Source of the DNA: a virus
Taxonomy: Duplodnaviria; Heunggongvirae; Uroviricota; Caudoviricetes
Strand: one strand, 5' to 3'
DNA length: 36,308 nucleotides
Virus record (IMG/VR): IMGVR_UViG_2563366905_000008
The position numbers were made by a program, and so were the translations under genes. Under the pieces are notes generated by a model, which was not told the DNA's origin, did not search any database, and saw only the letters and a list, made by a program, of their open reading frames with translations. Position 1 is the stretch's first letter; each line of letters starts with the position of its first letter. Positions 1 through 32,666 of the stretch are shown here, piece after piece.

Positions 1-906
1 ATGAAAATAATACTTCTGTTTTTAGCAGCCCTGGCAAGTTTTACCGTACACGCACAGCCCCCCTCACAGACCGTAGAACAAACAGTCCGGCATATTTATC
101 AGAACTATAAATCAGATGCCACTGCCCCTTATTTTGGTGAAACCGGAGAGCGAGCGATAACTTCTGCGCGTATTCAACAGGCGCTTACCCTGAACGACAA
201 TCTTACGCTGCCGGGCAATATTGGCTGGCTGGATTATGATCCGGTTTGTGATTGTCAGGATTTTGGCGATCTGGTGTTAGAAAGCGTAGCGATAACCCAA
301 ACTGACGCCGATCATGCCGATGCCGTTGTGCGCTTTCGTATCTTTAAAGACGATAAAGAAAAGACCTCGCAGACACTGAAAATGGTGGCGGAAAATGGTC
401 GTTGGGTCATTGGCGATATTGTCAGCAATCATGGCAGCGTCTTACAAGCGGTTAATAGCGAGAATGAAAAAACGCTGGCCGCTATAGCTTCGTTGCAAAA
501 AGAACAGCCGGAAGCCTTTGTTGCCGAACTCTTTGAACATATTGCTGATTATAGCTGGCCGTGGACGTGGGTGGTTTCCGACTCTTACCGCCAGGCGGTC
601 AATGCCTTCTATAAAACCACCTTCAAGACGGCCAACAATCCCGATGAAGATATGCAAATAGAACGGCAATTTATTTACGACAATCCGATCTGTTTTGGCG
701 AAGAGTCGTTATTTTCACGCGTTGATGAAATTCGAGTCCTGGAGAAAACCACCGATTCCGCCCGCATTCATGTTCGCTTTACGCTGACCAATGGCAACAA
801 CGAAGAGCAAGAACTGATTTTACAGCGGCGCGAAGGTAAGTGGGAAATCGCTGATTTTATCCGCCCGAACAGCGGCAGCCTACTTAAGCAGATTGAGGCA
901 AAATGA
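1..906 (+). CDS. Secreted/periplasmic protein of unknown function; probable host chromosomal flank
   Basis: 301-aa ORF starting at window position 1. N-terminus MKIILLFLAALASFTVHA looks like a Sec signal peptide. The two halves of the protein look like a duplicated domain (DYDPVCDCQDF... vs IYDNPICFGEE...). No phage hallmarks. Confidence 0.6.
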   Translation: MKIILLFLAALASFTVHAQPPSQTVEQTVRHIYQNYKSDATAPYFGETGERAITSARIQQALTLNDNLTLPGNIGWLDYDPVCDCQDFGDLVLESVAITQTDADHADAVVRFRIFKDDKEKTSQTLKMVAENGRWVIGDIVSNHGSVLQAVNSENEKTLAAIASLQKEQPEAFVAELFEHIADYSWPWTWVVSDSYRQAVNAFYKTTFKTANNPDEDMQIERQFIYDNPICFGEESLFSRVDEIRVLEKTTDSARIHVRFTLTNGNNEEQELILQRREGKWEIADFIRPNSGSLLKQIEAK

Positions 907-2251: not shown

Positions 2252-2638
2252 TTAATCCCGGTCGTCATCCGGTTCGTCATCGTCTTCAAATAACTGCCCC
2301 TGTAACCGGCTGATTTCTTCTTTTCTTACACGCTTCACCACGCTGTAGACCCACTGAAGCGAAACACCAAATTTGCGGGCCAGTTCGTGGTGGTTGCGTC
2401 CGTTAAACTCCCTGAAGATTTCCCGGTCGCGCTGACTGACCTTCCATACCATGCCCATCGGAAAATAAACGTTTTGCCCGCCCCAGACCTGCATCATGCG
2501 GTTCGCGACGGCCTGACCAATCTGGTCGGCAACTTCGGGCTCAATATCAATAATCTCGCGAACGGTCTCAGAGGTATGCTGTGCCAGTTCCACCAGGAGT
2601 TCCGGCCCTTTACTTCGAAACTGATTCAGGTCGCTCAT
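2252..2638 (-). CDS. mor: Mor/C-family transcriptional activator (Mu middle operon regulator-like)
   Basis: 128 aa; C-terminal HTH region REIFREFNGRNHHELARKFGVSLQWVYSVVKR and acidic tail typical of Mor/C proteins; sits after the GemA-like gene as in Mu. Confidence 0.75.
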   Translation of the reverse strand: MSDLNQFRSKGPELLVELAQHTSETVREIIDIEPEVADQIGQAVANRMMQVWGGQNVYFPMGMVWKVSQRDREIFREFNGRNHHELARKFGVSLQWVYSVVKRVRKEEISRLQGQLFEDDDEPDDDRD

Positions 2639-5866: not shown

Positions 5867-7033
5867 TTAAACCCCTTTGACAACGTCAGCGTTGACCTGT
5901 GGAACCCCGATTTCAGCGGCCAGATTCATGGCGGCTATTACCAGGTTACTGACGGCCAGCGGATACAGCAGGCTGACCATATTTTTACGATGACTTCCCG
6001 GATTGCTCAGGCGGGCGCGTATGGCATCCACTGCGCTGGCGTCCATAATGTCCGTCAGTTGTTTACCGGCCCGTTGCAGTTTGAACGTCAGAAACTCTTC
6101 AAGGTTATTGTCCAGAGGCAGAAGTTCGACCACCTCACAGCGCTGAACGACTTCACGGACTTCCATATTGCGTTCAGACAGTTTTGTCGCCAGTTCCGGC
6201 TGGCCAATCAGCACGATGGACAGCAGTTTTTTGAAACCGGACTCCAGCTCAAAAAAGCGTTTGAGGTGTTTCAGTGTCGGAATAGGCAGACTGTGGGCCT
6301 CCTCAATCACCAGAACGTGGCTGAACCCCGCCTGGCTGCTGTCTTTCAGGACGCGATGCAACTGGCGAAAGCGGGCGTCCTGACTGCGTCTGATGCTTTC
6401 CAGTGGTGCGATGGTACTGATAATGGCTTCGGCAATCGCTGCTGCCTTCAGGGTTTTCCCTTTCACATCGTTGTCTTCCATAGCGATGATGTATGGCTCG
6501 ATAACAATTACCGGCGCATTCTCGCGGTTGATACGTTCAGTCAGGTCGCGGCGCAGCGTGGATTTACCCGCACCGGACTCACCGATGACGGCCATAAACC
6601 CACCATGACGGGCTGTCTGGTACAACGCCTCACGCACGTAGCGAATGTCCGGGGTGGTGAACACATCATCAGAACCCTGCATGGCTTCGTCGGCGAACGG
6701 GTCACGGAAAAGACCAAACGCTTTTTTGGTTGCCGGGAATAACACCTGTTTTTTGAGTAACATATTCTCTTCCTCACTGAGGCTCGTTTTATCTGTGGTA
6801 CCCGCTGTACGGGGCGTGGTCGCGCCCTGTACAGCATCAAAACTCTTCGCTGTATCAATCCCCTGACTTTCCAGCCAGGACGCAAGACGCCGGCGCACTT
6901 CTCCGGGGCTGGTGCGGGGCCACGCGTTATGATTCACAATCTGGGCCAGCGTGGCCTCAGAAACATCGACAGCTCTCGCCACCACCGCCTGTGGAATACG
7001 GGCCTCTTTCAGTTGCTGCTTCAGTACCAGCAT
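5867..7033 (-). CDS. Transposition ATPase (Mu B-like AAA+ protein with N-terminal HTH)
   Basis: Walker A GESGAGKST and Walker B VLVIEEAH. I place the start at the ATG at 7033 (MLVLKQQLKEA...), which has GGAGG upstream and sits just after the transposase stop. Confidence 0.85.
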   Translation of the reverse strand: MLVLKQQLKEARIPQAVVARAVDVSEATLAQIVNHNAWPRTSPGEVRRRLASWLESQGIDTAKSFDAVQGATTPRTAGTTDKTSLSEEENMLLKKQVLFPATKKAFGLFRDPFADEAMQGSDDVFTTPDIRYVREALYQTARHGGFMAVIGESGAGKSTLRRDLTERINRENAPVIVIEPYIIAMEDNDVKGKTLKAAAIAEAIISTIAPLESIRRSQDARFRQLHRVLKDSSQAGFSHVLVIEEAHSLPIPTLKHLKRFFELESGFKKLLSIVLIGQPELATKLSERNMEVREVVQRCEVVELLPLDNNLEEFLTFKLQRAGKQLTDIMDASAVDAIRARLSNPGSHRKNMVSLLYPLAVSNLVIAAMNLAAEIGVPQVNADVVKGV

Positions 7034-7043
7034 GTTTCCCTCC

Positions 7044-8813
7044 TCAGTTGCCGTTAACAATGCTGATAACACTGCTGCGGGCCGGTGTGGTCAGCGTGGC
7101 CATGACTTCATCCAGTGCGGCTTCCGGTACGCCGTCCGGGTACTGTGCCGTTAACTGGCGGTAATGTTCCGGCGTCCAGGTAAGGCCGTCGGCGCTGAAC
7201 TTATCGCGCAGGGCTTTCGCGGCCTCCACATGAGTCATGGGACGTTGTTCAGTGCGCGGCCCGCGTACGTCAGAGGCCTGACCACGCTTCGGCATATAGG
7301 CCGGAAGTGTGGTGTCGTCGATATGTTTATACGGGTCAAGCTGCCCGCCGAACGGCAGCGCCTTCGCCTTGCGTGCGGCGGCTGCATCTGCGGCGTTGTC
7401 TGTACCGGTAACCAGCGCTTCGGTTTCTTTTGCCGCCATCTGTGCCGGGGTTTCCGGCAGGGCTTTGTAACTTTCGCCAAATACCGCCGCGCCTTCAGCA
7501 AAGCCAAACTCGTTCTTTCTGACCTCTTCGACCAGGAAGAACGTCTCGTGGCCGTCCTCACCGGTCAGAACCACCTGTGCCACATCGCTGCGCCACGGGT
7601 TACGGGTAATCATCAGTTTTTCACCGACCAGTACGTCAGGTACCGTTGATACGTCAAATTCAGTGCCCCGGAACGAGACACGAAGTTTTGGCGTGACTTT
7701 GCGGAGTTCTGGTGCCGCCACAGCCAGTTCACGGCATACCTCAACGGAAGGCGCTTTTTTCAGCTGCTCAGCAGTAATCTTCAGCCAGATATCCGTGCGG
7801 GTTTTACCGTGGCGGCTGTGAACAGCCGTGGCGTTAAAGTGGCTGCGCCATTTCGCGGCCAGCGCGTTGAGTTCTTCCAGACTGTGAACCGGCCGGAACT
7901 TCAGACCCGGCTCCAGCTTGCGTTCGATAATGTCACGCGCCTTTTCCACCTGTCCGGTGGCGCGGGCGTTATGCGGCTTGTGCGCTATCAGGTCGATGCC
8001 CAGTGAGCGGCACATGTTTTTCGTCATACCCGCGGTGTTTGCCGAGCCGGGGTCGAGATAGAGTATTTTCGGCACGCCGTGCAGCACGTCTGCGCCGCCA
8101 CGCTCCTGCATGGCGTTGATAAGCACAGAACACAGGTTCTCACCGGATTCCGCGCCCGTCACATACTCAACGTAAATCCAGCCGCTGGCATGGTCGGTAA
8201 TCTCGTAACTCCACACGCGGTCACTGGCGATACGGGCAAGGTTAGCGGGCTTGTTCTTGTAGAACTTCGCGCTGTCCATCACCTGCAGCCCTTTATGTCC
8301 ATTGCTCAGGTAGTAAAGCGTGCAGAGTGAGGCGTCAATCTGCCAGACATGATTGGGATGCAGACTGGCCACTTCGGTATGCGGCGCAGGGGCATCCAGT
8401 TGTTCCGGGTGCAGGCCATAGTTACGCAGGGCACGACTGATGGCATCTTCGGACAACGGGAAAAACTCACCGGTGGTTTCATCTGTTCTGCCTGCGGTGA
8501 TAAAGCCGTTAGCCCGCAGGGTTTCCACTGCATCTGCGATGGAATAGAGACGCTTACCGTTCTTGCGGGTGGCCTCACGCAGTGTGGCAGATATCAGCGC
8601 GGCTTCGTCGCGGGTCAGGGCGCTGCGCCCGGCATCGGCGCGTTTTTTGCGTTTATCAGTCACAGAGACCTCCTTCAGCCTGCGCAGCAGAGTGGCGCGG
8701 GACATGCCAAGTTCAGCACAGGCAGCGTCATATATTGCACCGCGTTTACCATGCCCCGCGTCACGTGCCGCGCGGGCGACATAAACCAGTCGTTCAGTCA
8801 GGGCAGCATTCAT
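7044..8813 (-). CDS. Mu-type DDE transposase (A protein)
   Basis: 589 aa; N-terminal HTH (GMSRATLLRRLKE); integrase-core motifs VWQIDAS, LYLDPGSANT and QVEKA; GGAGG RBS. Confidence 0.9.
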   Translation of the reverse strand: MNAALTERLVYVARAARDAGHGKRGAIYDAACAELGMSRATLLRRLKEVSVTDKRKKRADAGRSALTRDEAALISATLREATRKNGKRLYSIADAVETLRANGFITAGRTDETTGEFFPLSEDAISRALRNYGLHPEQLDAPAPHTEVASLHPNHVWQIDASLCTLYYLSNGHKGLQVMDSAKFYKNKPANLARIASDRVWSYEITDHASGWIYVEYVTGAESGENLCSVLINAMQERGGADVLHGVPKILYLDPGSANTAGMTKNMCRSLGIDLIAHKPHNARATGQVEKARDIIERKLEPGLKFRPVHSLEELNALAAKWRSHFNATAVHSRHGKTRTDIWLKITAEQLKKAPSVEVCRELAVAAPELRKVTPKLRVSFRGTEFDVSTVPDVLVGEKLMITRNPWRSDVAQVVLTGEDGHETFFLVEEVRKNEFGFAEGAAVFGESYKALPETPAQMAAKETEALVTGTDNAADAAAARKAKALPFGGQLDPYKHIDDTTLPAYMPKRGQASDVRGPRTEQRPMTHVEAAKALRDKFSADGLTWTPEHYRQLTAQYPDGVPEAALDEVMATLTTPARSSVISIVNGN

Positions 8814-8816
8814 TGG

Positions 8817-9728
8817 TTATGCCTCCAGCCCGTTAATCTGTGGCGTCGGCTCAGTCAGCCATGAAGGCGCGACATCGCCTGTTGGCTCGTCCGGCAGGTC
8901 AAATGTGGAGCGCAGGCTACGCGCTGTGCTTTCCAGTTGACAGACCAGGCCTGCCATGAAGTCTCTGGGGGTATCAATCATGTTTTCAGCACAATATGCA
9001 CACAGCGTCTCAAAAGCGCTGGACAGTCGGACGGCGATAGCTGATTCCGCCTCAACCGCTAACGCTGTCACTTCCGCCCGCAGTTTCTTCACCTCTTCGT
9101 CAGGCTCAGGCGGCTGAATACGGGATTTCTTCTCCAGTCTGGTGGAGAGTGAGTCTATTTTTTCATTTTTGTCGGCCAGCACGCGCTGTTGTGCTGCGTT
9201 GGTTTCGCGGGCTTCGCGAAGAGACTGACGCAATTCACGTACTGACATGCGATCAACGTCGTCAAGCGTCAGTCCGGCAACTGTGCCACCGTCGGCCAGT
9301 TCGGCAAGGTCTTCATCATCCTCTAACATCAATTCGTACAGTTTTGATCTTCCCAAATGCGAAAACGTTTTCGCTTTTGATGTCAGCTCTGGAGATAAAA
9401 ACTTCAGAGCAGCTTGGGCCATTTTTTGGGCTATGCGTGGCTCAAGGTTCAACTGTTCTTTGACGATTTGTACGTATTCTCCATGAGGTTCATTTTCCTT
9501 CAGGATAACCAAACGTTTACCTGCCTCCAGCATAGCCTCCGCACTCTGGTCCATATAAAACCGAGTTTCGTGAACGATGCGATTACGTTCATAGGGCAGG
9601 CCGTCGCCGAACTGCTGCATGATCTCCATACGATGCTGTGTCATGGCATTCAGGCTGACGTTGAGATCATCAGACAGCGGTATCTCGGCGTTCAGTTCAG
9701 TGCTAACCGGTGATTTGGTGCGTCCCAT
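8817..9728 (-). CDS. Hypothetical protein (303 aa) upstream of transposase
   Basis: AAGGAG RBS; stop is tightly coupled to the transposase start; coiled-coil-rich middle region. Confidence 0.55.
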   Translation of the reverse strand: MGRTKSPVSTELNAEIPLSDDLNVSLNAMTQHRMEIMQQFGDGLPYERNRIVHETRFYMDQSAEAMLEAGKRLVILKENEPHGEYVQIVKEQLNLEPRIAQKMAQAALKFLSPELTSKAKTFSHLGRSKLYELMLEDDEDLAELADGGTVAGLTLDDVDRMSVRELRQSLREARETNAAQQRVLADKNEKIDSLSTRLEKKSRIQPPEPDEEVKKLRAEVTALAVEAESAIAVRLSSAFETLCAYCAENMIDTPRDFMAGLVCQLESTARSLRSTFDLPDEPTGDVAPSWLTEPTPQINGLEA

Positions 9729-9738
9729 TGATTACTCC

Positions 9739-10047
9739 TTACAAACGACTACCTGAAATGACACGTTGGTTGATTTCGTTAATACGATCCTGCGCTCGTG
9801 CCATCTCGTTACTGTGAGCCATGGCGATCTGCAGTAACTGGATGCCAGGAGCAAAACGTCCATTCTCCAGTTTCAGGGCCAGCCCTTCTTCAATGAGGGT
9901 GTTGAGTGCCCGGTTGATGTTTGCCGGTGACTCGTGCAGTGCTGCTGCCAGTTCACCGTTGGAAATACCGTTCAGGGCATGACCGCGCAGCGCTTTGAGT
10001 ACCCGGAGGATGCGACTGCCGGAGCTTGAAACATTCGTCTTACTCAT
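9739..10047 (-). CDS. Winged-HTH DNA-binding protein, hypothetical regulator
   Basis: Track ORF 9739..10053; the ATG at 10047 has better SD spacing. Product contains an HTH-like segment ISNGELAAALHESPANINRALNTLIEEGLA. Confidence 0.5.
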   Translation of the reverse strand: MSKTNVSSSGSRILRVLKALRGHALNGISNGELAAALHESPANINRALNTLIEEGLALKLENGRFAPGIQLLQIAMAHSNEMARAQDRINEINQRVISGSRL

Positions 10048-10099
10048 CTGCATACCTCTTTTTCAATATGTGATAATCTTTTTCGCATGCTGTATCTTT

Positions 10100-10288
10100 T
10101 TAAGCGGCGTCAGTGATGGTTTTTAATCCCAGCTTGACGGCGATTTCATGGGCTTTGCCATAGTTCGCTTTTACCTGTCCATTCAGTACGCGGTAAACCT
10201 CTGCTCGGGTGTAGTTGTTCTGTTTTGCCCACTGGGTAAAGGTGATTCCGTTGCGGCGGAAATGGGCTTTGACCTGCTCTGCAGTCAT
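10100..10288 (-). CDS. Small HTH DNA-binding protein (Cro/Ner-like early regulator)
   Basis: 62 aa; divergent from the repressor gene; AAGGAGG RBS; first gene of the minus-strand early operon. Confidence 0.6.
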   Translation of the reverse strand: MTAEQVKAHFRRNGITFTQWAKQNNYTRAEVYRVLNGQVKANYGKAHEIAVKLGLKTITDAA

Positions 10289-10340
10289 TGTTGCCTCCTT
10301 TATTAACGCAATGATGTTTGCTCTATATATGTTAGATTAT

Positions 10341-10358
10341 TATCCCAAAAATGGGATA
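10341..10358. promoter_or_regulatory. Candidate operator: 18-bp palindrome TATCCCAAAAATGGGATA
   Basis: Perfect inverted repeat TATCCCA-AAAA-TGGGATA in the divergent region between the Cro/Ner-like and repressor genes. Confidence 0.4.
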
Positions 10359-10728
10359 TGTAAATAGGTATTGGACAAAAATGTCACTTGGCTCACGATT
10401 AAAAGAAGAAAGAAACCGCCTAGGATTTAGTCAGTCTGAGTTTGCTGAATTGGTGGGGGCATCCTATAAAAGCCAATTGCGGTGGGAAAAGGATGAATCC
10501 GCTCCCGGAGCAGATGCTTTGGCAATTTGGGCTACTTTAGGGCTTGACGTGCTTTACGTTGTTACAGGACAGAGAGGGGATGTAATGACCAATGTTGTCC
10601 CAAAAATGTCACCAGAAAAACAAAAATTAATGGACGCATTTGATGAAATGACTCCGGAACAACGACGCTCATTTCTTGAGGTTGGGCGATTCTATACTCA
10701 ACCCAAACCAAGTAAATTTACAGGCTGA
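10351..10728 (+). CDS. XRE-family HTH repressor (immunity repressor candidate)
   Basis: HTH motif LGFSQSEFAELVGASYKSQLRWEKDE; divergent from the early operon. Alternative start at ATG 10381 (MSLGSRLKEE...) is plausible because the first start lies inside the palindrome. Confidence 0.7.
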   Translation: MGYVNRYWTKMSLGSRLKEERNRLGFSQSEFAELVGASYKSQLRWEKDESAPGADALAIWATLGLDVLYVVTGQRGDVMTNVVPKMSPEKQKLMDAFDEMTPEQRRSFLEVGRFYTQPKPSKFTG

Positions 10729-10814
10729 TTCTGACCCGGACACAAAGGACAGGTGGTTGATCTGGACGCTTTCAGAAAGCGCCGTCAGTAGCATGGCAGG
10801 AATGGGCTGATTTA

Positions 10815-10845
10815 CCGGAAAGCATTGTGCTTTCCGGTTTTGTTT
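10815..10845 (+). terminator. Intrinsic terminator downstream of repressor gene
   Basis: Perfect 9-bp stem CCGGAAAGC / GCTTTCCGG with 5-nt loop, followed by TTTTGTTT; abuts the stop of the convergent methyltransferase gene. Confidence 0.55.
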
Positions 10846-11609
10846 CAGAAGTTGCAGATTACCAGTTCACGGCGCGGCGTGGGTTTACCCGCCAGACTGT
10901 AGTTGATATTCACCGTCTGTATGTTCAGTTCAGTGAACACCCGACGCATCTGCGGAATGTCGTTCACCGAGATAATCATCTTTCCTCTGATGCACCGGGC
11001 CAGTTCTGCGAGTAGTGTGTAGTTCTCTTCAGGAAAATCCACACCATAGCCTTCCGTACCCAGGTACGGTGGGTCGCAGTAGAACAGCGTGTGCGGACGA
11101 TCATAACGCTCAATGCACTGTTGCCAGTCCATGTGTTCTATGACTGTTCTGGAAAGCCGCAGGTGTGCTGCTGACAGTTCTTCTTCAATACGCAGCAGGT
11201 TGAAGCGTGGCGGGGATGTGGTGGAGGTACCGAAGCTGTGCTCTGCCACCTTGCCGCCAAACGCCTGCTTCTGAAGGTAGTAGAACCGTGCCGCACGCTG
11301 GATATCCGTCAGTGTTTCTTCCGGGGTGATCTGCAGCCATTTGTAGATCTGACGGCTGACCAGCGCCCATTTGAACTGGCGGACAAATTCTTCCAGGTGA
11401 TGCTTTACCACCCGGTACAGATTCACCAGTTCACCGTTGATATCATTAATGACTTCGATCTTGCCGGGTGTCTTAAGAAAATAGAGCGCTGCTGCCCCAC
11501 AGAACGGCTCCACATAACATTCATGCGCCGGAAACAGCGGCAGAATGTGTTTTGCAAGGCGGCGTTTGCCACCAATCCATGGAACGATGGGTAATGTCTG
11601 CATTTTCAT
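10845..11609 (-). CDS. DNA N6-adenine methyltransferase (Dam-like, D12 class)
   Basis: 254 aa; AdoMet-binding motif EPFCGAAALYF near the N-terminus and catalytic DPPY motif (FYCDPPYLGTEGY). Confidence 0.85.
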   Translation of the reverse strand: MKMQTLPIVPWIGGKRRLAKHILPLFPAHECYVEPFCGAAALYFLKTPGKIEVINDINGELVNLYRVVKHHLEEFVRQFKWALVSRQIYKWLQITPEETLTDIQRAARFYYLQKQAFGGKVAEHSFGTSTTSPPRFNLLRIEEELSAAHLRLSRTVIEHMDWQQCIERYDRPHTLFYCDPPYLGTEGYGVDFPEENYTLLAELARCIRGKMIISVNDIPQMRRVFTELNIQTVNINYSLAGKPTPRRELVICNF

Positions 11610-11800
11610 AATCTGTAAGCCTTTTACAATTATTAAAAATATGGCAGGCTAGTCTGGTCTCGCGAGACTGACTGAACCTCGGTCGGCTCACAGCCACTTC
11701 TGTGGGACGATGGCCAGTCCGGTGGGTCCGAAGCACCGGGCTGGTCGTTCTTTCATGATGCGGCAGGGATAGTGGGATTTCTGTTAATGTGGTTTAGGGA

Positions 11801-12016
11801 TTATCCGGGGTGATTGTCTGCCTTTATCTGGTCCAGGGCATAAGTGATCCCTTCTGCAAAAACAGAAGTATCGAACTGCTTTTGTATTTCCTGAAAATGA
11901 ACAGTGGCACGACAGATACTCAGTTCTCCGCGATGTAACCGGATAATATCTTCCAGAACATTGTTCACTGCTTCGGCACGGCGCTGATGTTCTGTTAACG
12001 TTAATCGGGGATTCAT
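11801..12016 (-). CDS. Hypothetical small protein (71 aa)
   Basis: AAGGAG RBS 6 nt upstream of ATG at 12016; AT-richer than surrounding phage genes. Its start codon overlaps the divergent plus-strand ORF. Confidence 0.4.
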   Translation of the reverse strand: MNPRLTLTEHQRRAEAVNNVLEDIIRLHRGELSICRATVHFQEIQKQFDTSVFAEGITYALDQIKADNHPG

Positions 12017-12419
12017 GATGCACTCCTTAAATGATGATTTTTATGTACTCACCGGCAAAATATTCTGCCGATTACTGAACACGCATCCGGCACCTCAGGT
12101 TTTGATTTATTCTGGTTTTTTCCATATCCCGGACCAGGTTGATCACGACCAGAAAAAGTGCCGGTATTTTATTGATACGCTGATATGGCTTCGGGATAAC
12201 AGCTATATTCGTTACTCTCAGTTGCTGGCTGTGGGAGCGGCTGATGTCGTCCTCACGGAAAAAACGCTCTGTCTGCTCAATGCCATGCCGACCTTTCTGC
12301 AGCCCCGGCCCGTACCATTTAAAGAGTTGCTTCTGGATGCAGTAAAAACCGGCGAAAATGCAGTCATCGCTGAATGCGTATCCCGGATTATGCGTTACGT
12401 GTTTAATGAACGTAAGTGA
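12015..12419 (+). CDS. Hypothetical protein (134 aa)
   Basis: Uninterrupted 134-codon ORF in an AT-richer stretch where no minus-strand ORF exists. Weak RBS. The 3' end overlaps the convergent P-loop gene by 25 bp. Confidence 0.4.
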   Translation: MMHSLNDDFYVLTGKIFCRLLNTHPAPQVLIYSGFFHIPDQVDHDQKKCRYFIDTLIWLRDNSYIRYSQLLAVGAADVVLTEKTLCLLNAMPTFLQPRPVPFKELLLDAVKTGENAVIAECVSRIMRYVFNERK

Positions 12420-13138
12420 GGTTTATCTGCTGTCTGCATAATCCCGATAGCCAGTGCGAGGGGAAGTAATTCCGGGGAAACTCTTTCAAACAGCGATGCC
12501 CATTCTCCTCTCGCCATCACTCTGTCCAGCCCGCCCCCCAGCTGCATTTCAGCAATCTTCCTGATTTCCCGGAACAACGCCGCTTTGATCTCTTCATGCT
12601 CAGCTTTATTTTCCGGTGTCAGAATGTATTCGTCGAAGAACCGGGGAGGCTGGTTAACGGGGATTGTGTTTACCGGGATGTGTTCCTGTTTCCCGTACTT
12701 CGGGGACGAACAACATTCTGTTGGCTGACCGGTGAGTTTACGTAACTCCTTCATGAGCAGCTCCTGATCGTAAACTGTCATCAGTGCCGCAATGGTGGCA
12801 TGCAGTGCATCGGGCAGTATCCAGGGTTGCCGGCCCGTGGGGCATATAACATCCAGTAGCTCATTCGTCCGACAGATACGCTCCTCGCCGTATGACAACA
12901 GGCCCTGTCCCGTGTATTCCTCCAGCCTGATCACTGTGCCAGCCCGTGGCTTCTGCCAGGTCGTCAGATCATCGCCACTCATACGGCGCTCACCGTCCAC
13001 GTCTGCGGCATCGACAATGACGCTGTTTCCGAGTTCCTGTTTCACCACTTCCTCTATCCGCGCCAGTACGTAACTTTTACCGCTGCCCACAGGACCGGAC
13101 ACGGTGACAGTGATGACCGGATTCAGTGTATGTGTCAT
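12395..13138 (-). CDS. P-loop NTPase, small kinase-like protein, function unknown
   Basis: 247 aa; Walker A GPVGSGKS at residues 15-22, followed by an hhhhD-like VIVDAAD; GAGGAGA RBS 7 nt upstream of ATG. Confidence 0.6.
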   Translation of the reverse strand: MTHTLNPVITVTVSGPVGSGKSYVLARIEEVVKQELGNSVIVDAADVDGERRMSGDDLTTWQKPRAGTVIRLEEYTGQGLLSYGEERICRTNELLDVICPTGRQPWILPDALHATIAALMTVYDQELLMKELRKLTGQPTECCSSPKYGKQEHIPVNTIPVNQPPRFFDEYILTPENKAEHEEIKAALFREIRKIAEMQLGGGLDRVMARGEWASLFERVSPELLPLALAIGIMQTADKPHLRSLNT

Positions 13139-13198
13139 GTTGCATTCTCCTCTGTGAATAATTCATCGTTTATCCTGCACATCCCGTATCCCCGGCTC

Positions 13199-13218
13199 TC
13201 TTAACGCGCTTTAAAATC
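13199..13218 (+). promoter_or_regulatory. Candidate late promoter element, copy 1 of TCTTAA-N5-TTTAAWATC
   Basis: TCTTAAcgcgcTTTAAAATC, 50 bp upstream of the first lysis gene; same motif and spacing recur at 26296 and 32647. Confidence 0.35.
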
Positions 13219-13268
13219 CTTCGCGCCCTGTATTTGTGATGCTGTCTCCACCAGACAAGGAGACACAC

Positions 13269-13619
13269 ATGAAAAACCTGAAAAAATTCATTCCCCCTGT
13301 TAAAAAACCTCGCCTCAGCGGCTGGCTGCTGACCTCAGTGCTGTTGCTGGGCACCATCGCTCTGGTCTCACCACAGCAGTTACCTGTTGTGATCTACAAG
13401 CTGGCACTCATCACACTGGCAGCAGTGCTGGGTTACTGGCTTGACCGTTCGCTCTTCCCCAAAGCCCGTCCCGGTCAGTACCTGAAACATGACGACAGGC
13501 TGATGGCTGAAGGGCGTTTCCCTGTGCAGACCGGCCTTCACCTTGTATTTTCTGCTGCGTTAATCCGCCGTGCACTGATTGTTGCAGCGGTCTGTCTGGC
13601 TGTGGCAACAGGACTGTGA
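13269..13619 (+). CDS. Membrane protein, holin candidate
   Basis: AAGGAGA RBS 5 nt before ATG at 13269; about three hydrophobic helices; immediately precedes the endolysin gene. Confidence 0.5.
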   Translation: MKNLKKFIPPVKKPRLSGWLLTSVLLLGTIALVSPQQLPVVIYKLALITLAAVLGYWLDRSLFPKARPGQYLKHDDRLMAEGRFPVQTGLHLVFSAALIRRALIVAAVCLAVATGL

Positions 13620-13621
13620 CC

Positions 13622-14350
13622 ATGAACTGGCCTCAAATCACCCTCATTATTCTGTTCGCCTTTGGTCTGGGCGTAACCGCCATCAGACACGGCGAACCAC
13701 GTAACGATAAATACAGCTTCTGGTGGCAGCTTGCTGGCAACCTGGTGATTGTCTGGCTGCTCTGGTGTGGCGGCTTTTTCAGCCAGGCATGCGCAGCACA
13801 ACCTCCGCAGGCTGCGCTGCAGTATCGCGATGATGTGATCCGTAATGCCCGGCTTGAATGGGGACTGTCTGCGCCGGTGGCCGATTTCGCCGCGCAACTG
13901 CATCAGGAAAGCGGCTGGCGACCTGATGCGGTCTCGCCGGCTGGCGCTCAGGGACTGGCGCAGTTCATGCCCGCCACTGCTGACTGGATAAGTCAGCTGA
14001 TGCCGGGGCTTAACAGCCGTGAGCCGTTTAATCCGGCATGGGCCATCCGGGCGCTGGTCAGCTATGACCGCTGGCTGTGGCAGCGCGTCAGCGCCGCCAG
14101 TGACTGCGAGCGTATGGCCATGACACTGTCGGGCTATAACGGTGGTCTGGGCTGGGTACAACGGGACAGGCGGCTTGCATCACAGAAAGGTCTGGACAGC
14201 ACCCGCTGGTTCGGACATGTCGCCACGGTGAATGCCGGACGCAATGCGGCCAGCTGGCGGGAGAACCGCCATTATCCGCAGCGCATCCTGCGCGAACTGG
14301 CACCGCGATATCTCACATGGGGAGGCAGCAGTTGTGTGGCATCTGGTTAA
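13622..14350 (+). CDS. Lytic transglycosylase endolysin (SLT domain) with N-terminal signal-anchor
   Basis: N-terminal hydrophobic segment ITLIILFAFGLGVTAI; SLT-type catalytic region QLHQESGWRPDAVSPAGAQGLAQFMPAT. Confidence 0.8.
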   Translation: MNWPQITLIILFAFGLGVTAIRHGEPRNDKYSFWWQLAGNLVIVWLLWCGGFFSQACAAQPPQAALQYRDDVIRNARLEWGLSAPVADFAAQLHQESGWRPDAVSPAGAQGLAQFMPATADWISQLMPGLNSREPFNPAWAIRALVSYDRWLWQRVSAASDCERMAMTLSGYNGGLGWVQRDRRLASQKGLDSTRWFGHVATVNAGRNAASWRENRHYPQRILRELAPRYLTWGGSSCVASG

Positions 14351-26275: not shown

Positions 26276-26299
26276 AGGGGCTTCGGCCCCTTTCTTCTT
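26276..26299 (+). terminator. Intrinsic terminator after the 93-aa ORF
   Basis: GGGGC-TTCG-GCCCC hairpin followed by TTTCTTCTT. Confidence 0.55.
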
Positions 26300-26315
26300 A
26301 ATCCCCTTTAATATC
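26296..26315 (+). promoter_or_regulatory. Candidate late promoter element, copy of TCTTAA-N5-TTTAAWATC
   Basis: TCTTAAtccccTTTAATATC, 52 bp upstream of the tail chaperone start; overlaps the T-tract of the preceding terminator. Confidence 0.35.
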
Positions 26316-32646: not shown

Positions 32647-32666
32647 TCTTAAACGCCTTTAATATC
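32647..32666 (+). promoter_or_regulatory. Candidate late promoter element, copy of TCTTAA-N5-TTTAAWATC
   Basis: TCTTAAacgccTTTAATATC, 32 bp upstream of the W-like ATG. Confidence 0.35.

What the first reader, a model, noticed from the sequence alone, without database searches (positions are those of the whole stretch)
10845..13138. Accessory island between immunity region and lysis cassette: Dam-like methyltransferase, P-loop kinase-like protein and two small unknown genes with overlapping divergent/convergent ends
Four genes sit between the repressor and the first late gene, where a transposable phage has no core genes. The P-loop protein (Walker A GPVGSGKS at residues 15-22, 247 aa) has the architecture of a small nucleotide or polynucleotide kinase. 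The 134-aa plus-strand ORF overlaps the P-loop gene tail-to-tail by 25 bp and the 71-aa gene start-to-start by 2 nt. The stretch 11610-12420 is visibly more AT-rich than the flanking phage genes, suggesting separate acquisition. A kinase plus small partner next to an orphan methyltransferase could be a defense, anti-defense or DNA-modification module.
Basis: partly seen in the sequence, partly recalled or inferred. Interest (0 to 1): 0.7.

Follow-up and report, generated by a model that had tools for sequence, protein, structure and literature searches.

The report
Variable cargo slot in Mu-like prophage
The four genes are real and sit in a swappable cargo slot of a BcepMu-like transposable prophage of E. 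coli, but the "kinase" is a chimeric protein built on a tiny, uncharacterised P-loop domain that related phages combine with many different tail modules, and the methyltransferase next to it is an independent, ordinary orphan Dam.

Summary
All ORFs, the Walker A motif and both overlaps are exactly as described. The AT-richness is modest: 47% GC against 55% for the window.

The window is a BcepMu-like transposable prophage. The stretch between its repressor and its first late promoter is a variable slot. At least six different gene contents occur there in relatives that share the same lysis cassette.

The "island" is not one unit but three independently assorting modules:
- **Dam module (10843-11756):** an orphan D12/Dam methyltransferase with its own upstream region.
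- **Three-gene set (trio):** the 71-aa gene, the antisense 134-aa gene and a ~89-aa helical protein. Their head-to-head and tail-to-tail arrangement is conserved in Serratia.
- **Mini P-loop gene:** a ~75-aa domain encoded next to the holin.

The 247-aa protein fuses the mini P-loop gene to the third trio member. The P-loop domain also occurs alone (68-90 aa). In other phages it carries at least nine short C-terminal modules in shuffled combinations.

It matches no kinase, no Pfam family above threshold and no solved fold. Kinase architecture is not supported, and function remains untested. The most likely reading is phage-host or phage-phage conflict cargo.

The parts
10814..10838 (.). Terminator-like hairpin (11-bp stem) between the convergent repressor gene and Dam. 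It is the likely end of both transcripts.
10845..11609 (-). Orphan D12-class (Dam family) N6-adenine DNA methyltransferase, 254 aa, with the DPPY motif.
   Evidence: Pfam PF02086 at 8.5e-29, 101.5 bits against a cut-off of 22. PADLOC MTase_II at 1.3e-111. TIGR00571 at 114.6 against a cut-off of 114.85. PDB relatives DpnM at 5e-17 and E. coli Dam at 5e-14. dN/dS about 0.06-0.1.
11610..11756 (-). Upstream region that travels with Dam in every relative (E30, KP12, Serratia, L032, L035). The transcript of the full 191-nt Dam-s71 intergenic region (11610-11800) is predicted to be structured.
   Evidence: blastn breakpoints at 11753-11756. Match H31. RNA fold z = -2.4.
11801..12016 (-). s71: a 71-aa protein of unknown function (phrog_4490) and first member of the conserved trio.
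   Evidence: 38% identity to the Serratia 73-aa orthologue, E = 7e-12. AAGGAG Shine-Dalgarno inside the first codons of the 134-aa ORF.
12015..12419 (+). m134: a 134-aa protein (phrog_2266) embedded antisense between the two minus-strand genes. Its sequence pattern resembles a winged helix, which is an inference only. It is dispensable: precise 318-bp deletion variants exist.
   Evidence: 52-53% identity to the Serratia 139-aa orthologue. Paralogue in L014. Deletion of 12069-12386 in L013, L052, L053 and L066.
12395..13138 (-). P247: a chimeric 247-aa protein (phrog_3787). Its order is mini P-loop N-domain, module A, Pro-rich linker, module B.
   Evidence: dN/dS about 0.2.
12914..13138 (-). 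N-domain (aa 1-75): a mini P-loop domain. Across 34 diverse sequences, G20 and K21 are invariant, S/T22 is present in 33, E50 in 31 and W61 in 27.
   Evidence: AF2 pLDDT 89.9. No fold neighbour.
12725..12826 (-). Module A (aa 105-138, PWILPDALHATIAALMTVYDQELLMKELRK). It is also the C-terminal module of the 141/158-aa proteins annotated 'ABC transporter ATPase' and of N-D-C-A proteins.
12431..12595 (-). Module B (aa ~182-236, motif D-x-V-x-x-R-x-x-W). It is homologous to the stand-alone 89-aa third gene of the Serratia trio.
   Evidence: 46% identity, E = 2e-11..
13198..13269 (+). First late (lysis) promoter region and right-hand boundary of the slot. It contains the dyad TTAACGCGCTTTAA at 13201-13214, then 24 nt, then ATGCTG at 13239-13244. 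The real holin ATG is at 13270.
   Evidence: Conserved in 10 related loci. The same motif with the same 24-nt spacing lies ahead of three other operons. A Mor activator gene is in the window.

Best explanation
**What it is (shown).** The region is the variable cargo slot of a BcepMu-like transposable prophage. It lies between the immunity region and the first late (lysis) promoter. In this phage the slot holds three modules that assort independently.

**Module 1: Dam.** This is an orphan Dam-family N6-adenine methyltransferase with its own upstream region. I infer that it methylates phage, and perhaps host, DNA using SAM. That would protect progeny DNA from restriction and possibly alter Dam-sensitive regulation.

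**Module 2: the trio.** This lineage-specific set has the order s71(-), m134(+), B(-). The middle gene is embedded antisense, head-to-head with s71 and tail-to-tail with B. Because there is no intergenic space, the promoter of each gene must lie inside a neighbour's coding sequence. I infer that transcription of m134 and of the minus-strand genes interfere with each other, so that m134 and s71/B are expressed alternately.

**Module 3: the mini P-loop gene.** Its 5' end abuts the late promoter region. It encodes a ~75-aa phosphate-loop domain followed by exchangeable short C-terminal modules.

**The 247-aa protein.** It is a fusion of module 3 (N-domain plus module A) with the third trio member (module B). 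It is not a nucleotide or polynucleotide kinase.

**Most likely mechanism (inferred).** The constant N-domain binds a nucleotide or phosphate ligand through its invariant GK[ST] and may oligomerise. The interchangeable helical C-terminal modules direct it to different partners. That would make this an accessory protein of phage-host or phage-phage conflict rather than of core phage development.
For: **Phage identity.** Window 10605-13643 is 94.8% identical to Escherichia phage PhiKM, a Bcepmuvirus. The window also carries Mor, GemA, Gam, a MuB-like AAA protein and a transposase.

**Slot variability.** Six layouts were seen between the repressor and the holin. In complete E. coli genomes, 636 of 5,426 carry the lysis cassette, 556 carry the Dam module, and 482 carry the trio plus P247 at 80% coverage or more.

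**Module boundaries.** blastn puts the Dam module at 10843-11756 and the trio plus P247 block at 11757-13197. Homology to the Dam-less M9682-C1 type resumes at 12673, inside P247.

**Fusion origin of P247.**
- The Serratia trio has a stand-alone 89-aa gene matching only residues 182-233 of P247.
- Proteins of 141/158 aa consist of N plus A only.
- Proteins of 182 aa join a truncated N-A part to module B.

**N-domain family.**
- A search of 1.84 billion cluster representatives gave 65 hits. Nearly all of the longer ones match only over query residues ~1-75.
- Stand-alone forms of 68-90 aa occur in unrelated phages.
- K21 is invariant and S/T22 is present in 33 of 34 sequences.
- The AF2 model has pLDDT 89.9.

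**Mosaic architectures.** N-A-B, N-A, N-C-B, N-I-C-B, N-D-C-A, N-D-C-E, N-D-C-H, N-I-C-G, N-F-G, N-D-F, N-E and N-G.

**Position.** In all BcepMu-like viral contigs recovered with the N-domain query, the gene lies divergent from the holin. This holds even where the holin is only 62-68% identical.

**Dam.**
Against: - No experiment or homology assigns a function to s71, m134, module A, module B or the N-domain. PADLOC, Pfam, NCBIfam and PDB profile searches are all negative.
- No convincing sigma-70 promoter was found for P247 or m134, so expression timing is unknown.
- DSSP on the AF2 model calls no beta-strands, so even the P-loop fold assignment rests on the sequence motif.
- A few family members have a degenerate Walker A (GAESSGKN).
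- Within E. coli, s71 and m134 show weak purifying selection (dN/dS about 0.4-1), based on few substitutions.
- Constant-N, variable-C patterns can also arise simply because a recombination boundary lies inside a gene.
Confidence: 0.55

Rival explanations
1. A small nucleotide or polynucleotide kinase (P247) works with two small partners and the adjacent Dam as one defence, anti-defence or DNA-modification module.
For: A Walker A motif is present. Weak sub-threshold hits include Zeta_toxin, uridine kinase and cytidylate kinase, limited to the P-loop segment. The genes are adjacent in 482 E. coli genomes.
Against: - All P-loop family hits are below the curated cut-offs and cover only about 45 residues.
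- The conserved domain is only ~75 aa and also exists alone.
- There is no fold match to kinases.
- Dam, the trio and the P-loop gene occur without one another.
- The Serratia trio lacks the P-loop entirely.
Confidence: 0.05
2. The trio, or m134 paired with s71 or P247, is a toxin-antitoxin or abortive-infection module. It would be kept in the prophage by addiction, with m134 as a DNA-binding antitoxin.
For: The proteins are small, the genes are tightly packed and overlapping, and m134 has a winged-helix-like pattern. The location is a prophage cargo slot.
Against: - The genes are divergent and convergent, not co-transcribed as in type II systems.
- A precise m134 deletion with intact s71 and P247 is found in at least two distinct viral contigs (IMG/VR) and one metagenome contig. 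m134 is therefore not an indispensable antitoxin.
- There are no PADLOC or Pfam toxin or antitoxin hits.
Confidence: 0.1
3. The genes are regulators of the phage's own late development or lysis timing, which would make them a semi-core function. For example, m134 could be a DNA-binding regulator, and the P-loop gene could be co-controlled with the divergent late promoter.
For: The N-domain gene always abuts the late promoter region, even in divergent relatives. The dyad operator lies 63 nt from the P247 ATG, similar to the 36-57 nt seen at the other dyad-associated promoters. m134 resembles a winged helix.
Against: - E30-type, KP12 and Serratia phages keep the same late promoter and lysis cassette without the P-loop gene.
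- The left-side motif ATYNTGCA is conserved even where no divergent gene follows, as in KP12.
- The P247 side lacks the ATRCTG element found 24 nt from the dyad at the three plus-strand late promoters.
- m134 deletions are tolerated.
Confidence: 0.12
4. s71 and m134 are decaying or non-functional ORFs, and only Dam and P247 are real genes.
For: dN/dS is about 0.4-1 among E. coli variants. m134 is unannotated in PhiKM and deleted in some prophages. The family is very narrow, limited to Escherichia and Serratia.
Against: - Orthologues in Serratia keep length, order, orientation and both junctions at 38% and 53% protein identity.
- s71 has a strong Shine-Dalgarno sequence.
- An m134 paralogue exists in L014.
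- Full-length PHROG families exist for both.
Confidence: 0.08

Closest known systems
Orphan Dam-family (D12 class) phage and bacterial methyltransferases: DpnM, E. coli Dam and phage Dam enzymes
   Same: It scores above the PF02086 threshold, has the DPPY catalytic motif and the FxGxG-like SAM motif, and has no adjacent nuclease. The solved relatives listed include DpnM (methyltransferase DpnII 1) and E. coli Dam; I know these two as GATC enzymes from general knowledge, not from a test here.
   Different: The relationship is distant (E = 5e-17 to DpnM). It falls 0.25 bits short of the TIGR00571 'dam' cut-off, and its specificity is untested.
The repressor-to-holin slot of BcepMu/KS10-type transposable phages, and prophage accessory ('moron') hotspots in general
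   Same: KS10 has two hypothetical genes (gp11, gp12) between its repressor gp13 and holin gp10, and the BcepMu repressor (gp17) and holin (gp21) are likewise several gene numbers apart (PMC2628397). Here the same slot carries at least six alternative contents.
   Different: None of the cargo seen here matches a catalogued defence system. The hotspots of P2/P4-type phages that carry known defence systems are recalled from memory and were not tested.
P-loop NTPases, specifically the Walker A segment of ABC-type nucleotide-binding domains and the minimal designed 'phosphate-loop' proteins (PDB 6c2u, 9jix)
   Same: It has the beta-strand, GxxGxGK[ST], helix, 'xIxID' strand pattern. The profile matches ABC nucleotide-binding domains at 4e-5 and the designed proteins at 7e-5 and 9e-4. 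PGAP names the 141/158-aa forms 'ABC transporter ATPase'.
   Different: Only about 35-60 residues align. There is no ABC signature, Q-loop or H-loop, and no kinase lid. The whole conserved domain is ~75 aa. A confident model has no structural neighbour in the PDB.
Polyvalent proteins and polymorphic-toxin-style domain shuffling in mobile elements (Iyer, Aravind and colleagues; recalled from memory)
   Same: A constant N-terminal module is followed by combinatorially exchanged C-terminal cassettes within one phage lineage.
   Different: These proteins are small (110-364 aa). No cassette matches a known toxin, immunity or anti-restriction domain. No delivery or secretion signal is evident.
Face-to-face promoter switches of P2/186-type phages and other antisense-coupled phage gene pairs (recalled from memory)
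   Same: The divergent genes must have overlapping 5' transcripts, and convergent overlap occurs at the other end. The arrangement is conserved across genera.
   Different: No promoters have been mapped. There is no evidence that any trio protein is a repressor. The intergenic distance is zero rather than tens of bases.

Membership tests
D12-class / Dam-family N6-adenine DNA methyltransferase | Match to PF02086 above the gathering score | tested here: met
   101.5 bits against 22, covering profile positions 1-248 of 253.
D12-class / Dam-family N6-adenine DNA methyltransferase | Catalytic DPPY motif and an N-terminal SAM-binding FxGxG-type motif | tested here: met
   The translation shows ...LFYCDPPYLGTEGY... 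and ...EPFCGAAALYF....
D12-class / Dam-family N6-adenine DNA methyltransferase | NCBIfam TIGR00571 'dam' subfamily cut-off | tested here: inconclusive
   114.6 bits against a cut-off of 114.85.
D12-class / Dam-family N6-adenine DNA methyltransferase | GATC specificity and in-vivo methylation | not testable with these tools
   Indirect only. The solved relatives listed include DpnM and E. coli Dam, which I know as GATC enzymes from general knowledge. GATC is mildly under-represented in the window (104 against 141 +/- 11).
Small nucleotide / polynucleotide kinase (P-loop kinase) | Walker A motif | tested here: met
   GPVGSGKS at residues 15-22. K21 is invariant across the family.
Small nucleotide / polynucleotide kinase (P-loop kinase) | Significant match to a kinase family model over a full P-loop core (about 150-200 aa including lid and substrate domain) | tested here: not met
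   The best Pfam and NCBIfam hits are all below their cut-offs and confined to residues ~4-50. Conservation across homologues ends at about residue 75.
Small nucleotide / polynucleotide kinase (P-loop kinase) | Structural similarity to solved kinases | tested here: not met
ABC transporter ATPase (the PGAP name for the 141/158-aa relatives) | PF00005 above threshold, together with the ABC signature, Walker B and H-loop | tested here: not met
   PF00005 appears only at E = 0.004-0.017, below its 25-bit cut-off, and covers only the Walker A part. No LSGGQ-like motif is present in the sequence.
Catalogued anti-phage defence systems (PADLOC-DB 2.0) | Significant match of any component to a defence-system model | tested here: not met
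   s71 and m134 gave no hits. P247 gave only E >= 0.005 hits to the P-loop parts of Csx3, mad8, SngB and HerA. The Dam hits are generic MTase models.
Type II toxin-antitoxin module | Two co-directional, co-transcribed small genes, with an antitoxin that cannot be lost while the toxin stays intact | tested here: not met
   The genes are head-to-head and tail-to-tail on opposite strands. m134 is precisely deleted while its neighbours remain intact in several contigs.
DUF2513 (PF10711) winged-helix proteins (the UniRef label of the Serratia m134 orthologue) | Match to the Pfam model | tested here: not met
   No PF10711 hit was found for m134, P0031 or P0024 (E up to 5) or for the L014 paralogue (E up to 0.5). 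The label exists only in UniRef. The winged-helix reading rests on the sequence pattern alone.
Core gene set of BcepMu-like phages | Present at this position in all relatives | tested here: not met
   The P-loop gene is absent from E30-type, KP12 and Serratia prophages that share the flanking genes. About 76% of E. coli genomes with the cassette have the block.

The most novel reading that the evidence does not exclude
The ~75-aa mini P-loop domain may define a new class of phage conflict protein. In this reading the domain is a minimal nucleotide-binding switch or oligomerisation unit. It occurs alone in some phages and, in BcepMu-like prophages, is fused to combinatorially exchanged helical cassettes. 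The cassettes would re-target it to different host or rival-phage proteins. One concrete possibility is that it acts as a dominant-negative 'half-site' that poisons ABC/SMC-type defence ATPases. The adjacent s71-m134-B trio would then be an antisense-coupled expression switch for one such cassette.
Probability: 0.2. Interest if true: 0.75.

Novelty: new member of a known kind. Interest (0 to 1): 0.45.

Why it matters
This prophage family is in about 12% of complete E. coli genomes (636 of 5,426), and the listed carriers include O25b:H4-ST131 isolates. Three points follow from the analysis.

- **A defined diversity hotspot.** The repressor-to-late-promoter slot is sharply bounded and can now be mined systematically for new defence or counter-defence genes.
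- **Corrected annotations.** The labels 'P-loop kinase' and 'ABC transporter ATPase' are misleading. The real object is an uncharacterised minimal phosphate-loop domain with modular partners. That makes it a tractable target for biochemistry, and it bears on how small a natural P-loop protein can be.
- **A natural test case for antisense coupling.** The conserved antisense-embedded gene trio allows study of expression coupling between overlapping protein-coding genes.

The Dam gene itself is ordinary.

Tried and rejected
**Structure and fold searches**
- AF2 of the full 247-aa protein with an 11-sequence alignment gave pLDDT 42 and was unusable.
- PDB sequence-profile searches for m134, s71 and module B found nothing.
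- hhalign of s71 against module B gave 2% probability, so they are not paralogues.

**Family and database searches**
- Pfam, NCBIfam and PADLOC found nothing for s71 and m134.
- The DUF2513 lead from UniRef could not be reproduced. The literature on DUF2513 is empty.
- Rfam found no RNA family in 9700-13700.
- PADLOC on alternative cargo from the same slot gave only weak hits: KwaA at 8e-5 and LmuB at 3e-4.
- Literature searches for the WP accessions and for BcepMu-like hotspots in ST131 found nothing relevant.

**Searches for further relatives and context**
- The genome-contig scan with the N-domain alignment was swamped by the generic Walker A pattern. It gave one true locus and one false one, a PilT-type ATPase in L011.
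- Viral and metagenome scans for m134 returned only near-identical E. coli prophages plus the Serratia one.
- Phage and plasmid tblastn searches found only PhiKM and two large E. coli records filed as plasmids.

**Ideas considered and dropped**
- A divergent late promoter for P247 sharing the Mor-type dyad. The left-hand conserved motif is also present where no divergent gene exists (KP12), and the P247 side lacks the ATRCTG element.
- The 24-nt direct repeat flanking s71 as a recombination scar. It is only 75% identical, has two copies, and may be chance.
Full report
**1. Observation**

- 10845-11609(-), 254 aa
- 11801-12016(-), 71 aa, here called s71
- 12015-12419(+), 134 aa, here called m134
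- 12395-13138(-), 247 aa, here called P247

GPVGSGKS is at residues 15-22 of P247. m134 and P247 overlap tail-to-tail by 25 nt (12395-12419). m134 and s71 overlap start-to-start by 2 nt (CATG at 12014-12017).

All four are real genes rather than chance ORFs:
- Each matches a PHROG family end to end.
- PGAP calls all of them in E. coli genomes.
- s71 and P247 have strong Shine-Dalgarno sequences.
- The three unknowns have orthologues in Serratia.

The AT-richness is real but modest. Region 11610-12420 is 47.2% GC against a window mean of 54.8% (6th percentile of equal-sized windows). It comes from s71 and m134 (45-46%). P247 is average at 53.6%, and the immunity region is equally AT-rich.

**2. 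What the window is**

Window 10605-13643 is 94.8% identical to Escherichia phage PhiKM, which GenBank classifies as a Bcepmuvirus. The window encodes these functions:
- Minus strand: Mor (2252-2638), GemA, Gam, a MuB-like AAA protein and a DDE transposase.
- An immunity region with an IclR-like protein, a 62-aa DNA-binding protein and an HTH repressor at 10351-10728(+).
- Plus strand: holin, SLT endolysin, spanin, terminase and the remaining late genes.

The real holin start is the ATG at 13270, preceded by AAGGAG, not the GTG at 13236.

In the related phages KS10 and BcepMu the repressor-to-holin interval also holds only hypothetical genes (PMC2628397).

**3. The interval is a variable slot**

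Relatives that share the flanking early genes and the lysis cassette carry different contents between the repressor and the holin:

| Source | Content of the slot |
|---|---|
| Window, ST131 strain 5506 (L003), PhiKM | Dam, s71, m134, P247 |
| M9682-C1 type (L004, L023-L028) | No Dam; 328-aa and 193-aa plus-strand genes; a 158-aa 'ABC transporter ATPase' equal to P247 residues 1-~155 |
| E30 | NA37 nucleoid-associated protein, a 401-aa protein, then Dam directly followed by the holin |
| Klebsiella phage KP12 | 177-aa gene, Dam, a DUF2441 protein |
| Serratia | Dam, 73-aa, 139-aa and 89-aa genes |
| L054/L055 | 182-aa P-loop variant, m134, s71, an extra 126-aa gene, Dam |
| L032-L035 | Still other cargo |

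Counts among 5,426 complete E. coli genomes:
- 636 carry the lysis cassette.
- 556 carry the Dam module.
- 482 carry the trio plus P247 block at 80% coverage or more.

So the block is common. It is about 76% of carriers, although clonal over-sampling of some lineages may inflate that share. It is nonetheless dispensable.

**4. Module boundaries (blastn)**
- The Dam module spans 10843-11756. It always includes the 146 nt upstream of Dam, with breakpoints at 11753-11756 in five independent relatives.
- The trio plus P247 block spans 11757-13197.
- Conservation with phages that lack the block resumes at 13198, the start of the late promoter region.
- Homology to the M9682-C1 type resumes at 12673, which is inside P247 at about codon 155.

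**5. Dam**

The 254-aa protein is a D12-class N6-adenine methyltransferase:
- PF02086 scores 101.5 bits against a cut-off of 22.
- DPPY and SAM-binding motifs are present.
- PADLOC MTase_II scores 1e-111.
- The solved relatives found include DpnM and E. coli Dam.
- TIGR00571 falls 0.25 bits below its cut-off.

No nuclease neighbour is present, so it is an orphan. It is under strong purifying selection (dN/dS about 0.06-0.1). Its presence without the other genes (E30, KP12) and its absence where the P-loop gene is present (M9682-C1) show it is an independent module. This is an ordinary phage feature.

**6. P247 is not a kinase**

Sequence families give no support:
- Every P-loop family hit in Pfam and NCBIfam is below its curated threshold and limited to residues ~4-50.
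- PDB sequence search finds only Walker A segments. The best single hit is, tellingly, a de novo designed minimal ATPase.
- A family profile hits the Walker A, helix and next strand of ABC domains, plus designed 'phosphate-loop' proteins.

Close homologues reveal the protein's anatomy:
- 141/158-aa forms end after module A.
- 182-aa forms join a truncated N-A part to the C-terminal part.
- 247-aa forms have everything.

An exhaustive HMM search of 1.84 billion cluster representatives found only 65 hits. Nearly all of the longer ones match only over query residues ~1-75.

That N-domain also exists as stand-alone 68-90-aa proteins in unrelated, GC-rich phage contigs and elsewhere. Conservation across 34 diverse sequences:

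| Residue | Conserved in |
|---|---|
| G20, K21 | 34/34 |
| S/T22 | 33/34 |
| E50 | 31/34 |
| W61 | 27/34 |
| P64 | 25/34 |
| Acidic 'LEE' after the last strand | about 22-23/34 |

The conclusion is a minimal phosphate-loop domain of unknown activity. Neither kinase nor ABC-ATPase membership is met.

**7. Mosaic architecture**

I mapped nine recurring short modules (A-I) onto the family. The architectures found were:
- N-A-B (this window)
- N-A
- N-(partial A)-B
- N-C-B
- N-I-C-B
- N-D-C-A
- N-D-C-E
- N-D-C-H
- N-I-C-H
- N-I-C-G
- N-F-G
- N-D-F
- N-E
- N-G
- N-C

Modules also occur without N. Module B is the Serratia 89-aa gene, and module A stands alone in P0091 and P0096. All modules match only PHROGs of unknown function.

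In every BcepMu-like viral contig recovered with the N-domain query, the gene lies divergent from the holin. This holds even where the holin is only 62-68% identical and the N-domain 45-59% identical (L032, L033, L035). The locus is therefore a positionally fixed gene with a constant head and cassette-like tails.

**8. The trio**

Serratia BcepMu-like prophages carry Dam(-), 73 aa(-), 139 aa(+), 89 aa(-), then the holin.
- The 73-aa protein is 38% identical to s71 (E = 7e-12).
- The 139-aa protein is 52-53% identical to m134.
- The 89-aa protein is 46% identical to P247 residues 182-233 only.

The junction geometry is conserved. The head-to-head junction is a 1-nt gap in Serratia against a 2-nt overlap here. 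The tail-to-tail overlap is 37 nt against 25 nt here.

The conserved unit is therefore s71, m134 and B. The P-loop part is a later fusion partner.

m134 shows a sequence pattern (…F..T..WL...GYI…(wing)…LT.K.L..LN…) that resembles a winged helix. No model confirms this, and the UniRef 'DUF2513' label could not be reproduced.

A precise 318-bp deletion of m134 (12069-12386) that leaves s71 and P247 intact occurs in at least two distinct viral contigs (IMG/VR) and one metagenome contig. This argues against m134 being an essential antitoxin.

Within E. coli, purifying selection is clear for P247 (about 0.2). It is weak for s71 and m134 (about 0.4-1), on few substitutions. The trio was found only in Escherichia and Serratia.

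**9. Regulation**

A hairpin at 10814-10838 separates the convergent repressor and Dam genes.

The right boundary of the slot is a conserved promoter-like region. It consists of the dyad TTAACGCGCTTTAA (13201-13214), then 24 nt, then ATGCTG (13239-13244), followed by the holin Shine-Dalgarno and ATG. Its core is invariant in ten related loci.

The same motif occurs five times in the window, which is eight matches counting both strands, against 0.46 expected by chance:
- At 26298 and 32649 it lies ahead of plus-strand operons with an identical 24-nt spacing to ATACTG.
- At 1981-1994 it lies ahead of a minus-strand gene with the same 24-nt spacing but a weaker CAATGG element.
- The fifth site, 5867-5880, lies inside the MuB-like gene.

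With a Mor-family activator encoded in the window, these are very probably the activator-dependent late promoters. A dyad centred near -43.5 would be consistent with what I recall of Mu Mor/C promoters.

No convincing promoter was found for P247 or m134. The idea that the dyad also drives P247 divergently was not supported. Whether the cargo is expressed in lysogeny or late is therefore open.

**10. Interpretation**

Shown:
- The slot is variable.
- It holds three independently assorting modules.
- P247 has a fusion origin.
- The N-domain is a distinct, small, conserved phosphate-loop family with shuffled tails.
- Kinase, ABC-ATPase, toxin-antitoxin, known-defence and core-gene memberships all fail their tests.

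Inferred, at moderate to low confidence:
- The N-domain binds a nucleotide or phosphate ligand, and the exchangeable helical modules provide target specificity. This pattern is typical of proteins under diversifying conflict selection.
- The trio's zero-spacer antisense layout couples expression of m134 negatively to s71/B.
- Dam protects phage DNA from restriction.

Rivals and their weights are listed separately. They are a single kinase-based module, a toxin-antitoxin or abortive-infection module, a late or lysis regulator, and decaying ORFs.

**11. Novelty and score**

A cargo hotspot in a prophage and an orphan Dam are known kinds of thing. The specific proteins are uncharacterised, and the mini P-loop family with combinatorial cassettes is, as far as these searches show, undescribed. 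Without any functional evidence I rate this as a new member of a known kind, with interest 0.45. There is about a 20% chance that it hides a new type of conflict protein.

Noticed in passing
window 13201-13214, 26298-26311, 32649-32662, 1981-1994 (and 5867-5880): A dyad TTAAnnCnCTTTAA recurs five times (8 matches on both strands against 0.46 expected). At the three plus-strand intergenic sites it is followed after exactly 24 nt by ATRCTG, and a start codon lies about 36-57 nt beyond the dyad. At 1981-1994, ahead of a minus-strand gene, the same spacing leads to a weaker CAATGG. With a Mor-family gene at 2252-2638(-), these look like the activator-dependent late promoters of this phage.
   Followed up: partly
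window 12069-12386; L013, L052, L053, L066: A precise 318-bp deletion removes most of the 134-aa gene and leaves both neighbours intact. It recurs in at least two distinct viral contigs (IMG/VR) and one metagenome contig.
   Followed up: partly
window 11779-11802 and 11990-12013: An imperfect 24-nt direct repeat (75% identity) brackets the 71-aa gene exactly. The second copy contains the ribosome-binding region of the 134-aa gene. It may be chance or a module junction.
   Followed up: no
window 11610-11800: The Dam-s71 intergenic region contains a perfect 12-bp palindrome, GTCTCGCGAGAC. Its minus-strand RNA folds more stably than shuffles (z = -2.4). The first 146 nt of the region always travel with Dam.
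   Followed up: partly
L014 7588-8034 (-): One E. coli prophage carries a second, divergent paralogue of the 134-aa protein (148 aa, 28-31% identity), plus a Dam fragment, between the trio and Dam. This indicates duplication or recombination within the slot.
   Followed up: partly
L005 1525-3740; L034 6502-9308; L004 2798-4456: Alternative cargo occupies the same slot. One set is an NA37 nucleoid-associated protein plus a 401-aa protein with a weak KwaA-like hit (8e-5). Another is a 173-aa Cys-rich coiled-coil protein, a 153-aa membrane protein and a 297-aa protein. A third is a 328-aa plus 193-aa pair. None matches a catalogued defence system.
   Followed up: partly
window 1-906 (+) and 1-1700: An ORF running in from the window's left end encodes a DUF3828 protein in a GC-poor stretch (about 45-47%). 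It is probably host flank or terminal cargo beyond the prophage's Mor end.
   Followed up: no
L002 (GenBank OM835952, 'Klebsiella phage KP12 clone KP12_2'): The record is labelled Vequintavirinae. The contig, however, has the transposase, the immunity region, the holin/SLT cassette and the Mu-type gp27, terminase and portal-like (FluMu gp29) genes of a BcepMu-like phage. It is likely a co-assembled prophage rather than part of a Vequintavirus.
   Followed up: no
whole window: GATC is mildly under-represented (104 sites against 141 +/- 11 in shuffles) even though the phage carries its own Dam-family methyltransferase.
   Followed up: no
L001 (PhiKM, PQ738613) 7411-7812: The 134-aa gene is intact (97.8% identity) but unannotated in the PhiKM GenBank record. 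Dam is annotated there with a longer N-terminus (284 aa) than in PGAP (254 aa).
   Followed up: yes
L010 6004-6396: In a non-Mu prophage of an Enterobacterales bacterium, a 130-aa N-domain protein lies between two small upstream ORFs and an HNH-like ORF followed by apparent small and large terminase genes (assignments made by eye from the translations, not tested). In GC-rich phage contigs (L036-L040) the stand-alone domain lies among small ORFs whose roles I only guessed from their sequences. The domain is therefore not tied to one genomic context.
   Followed up: partly
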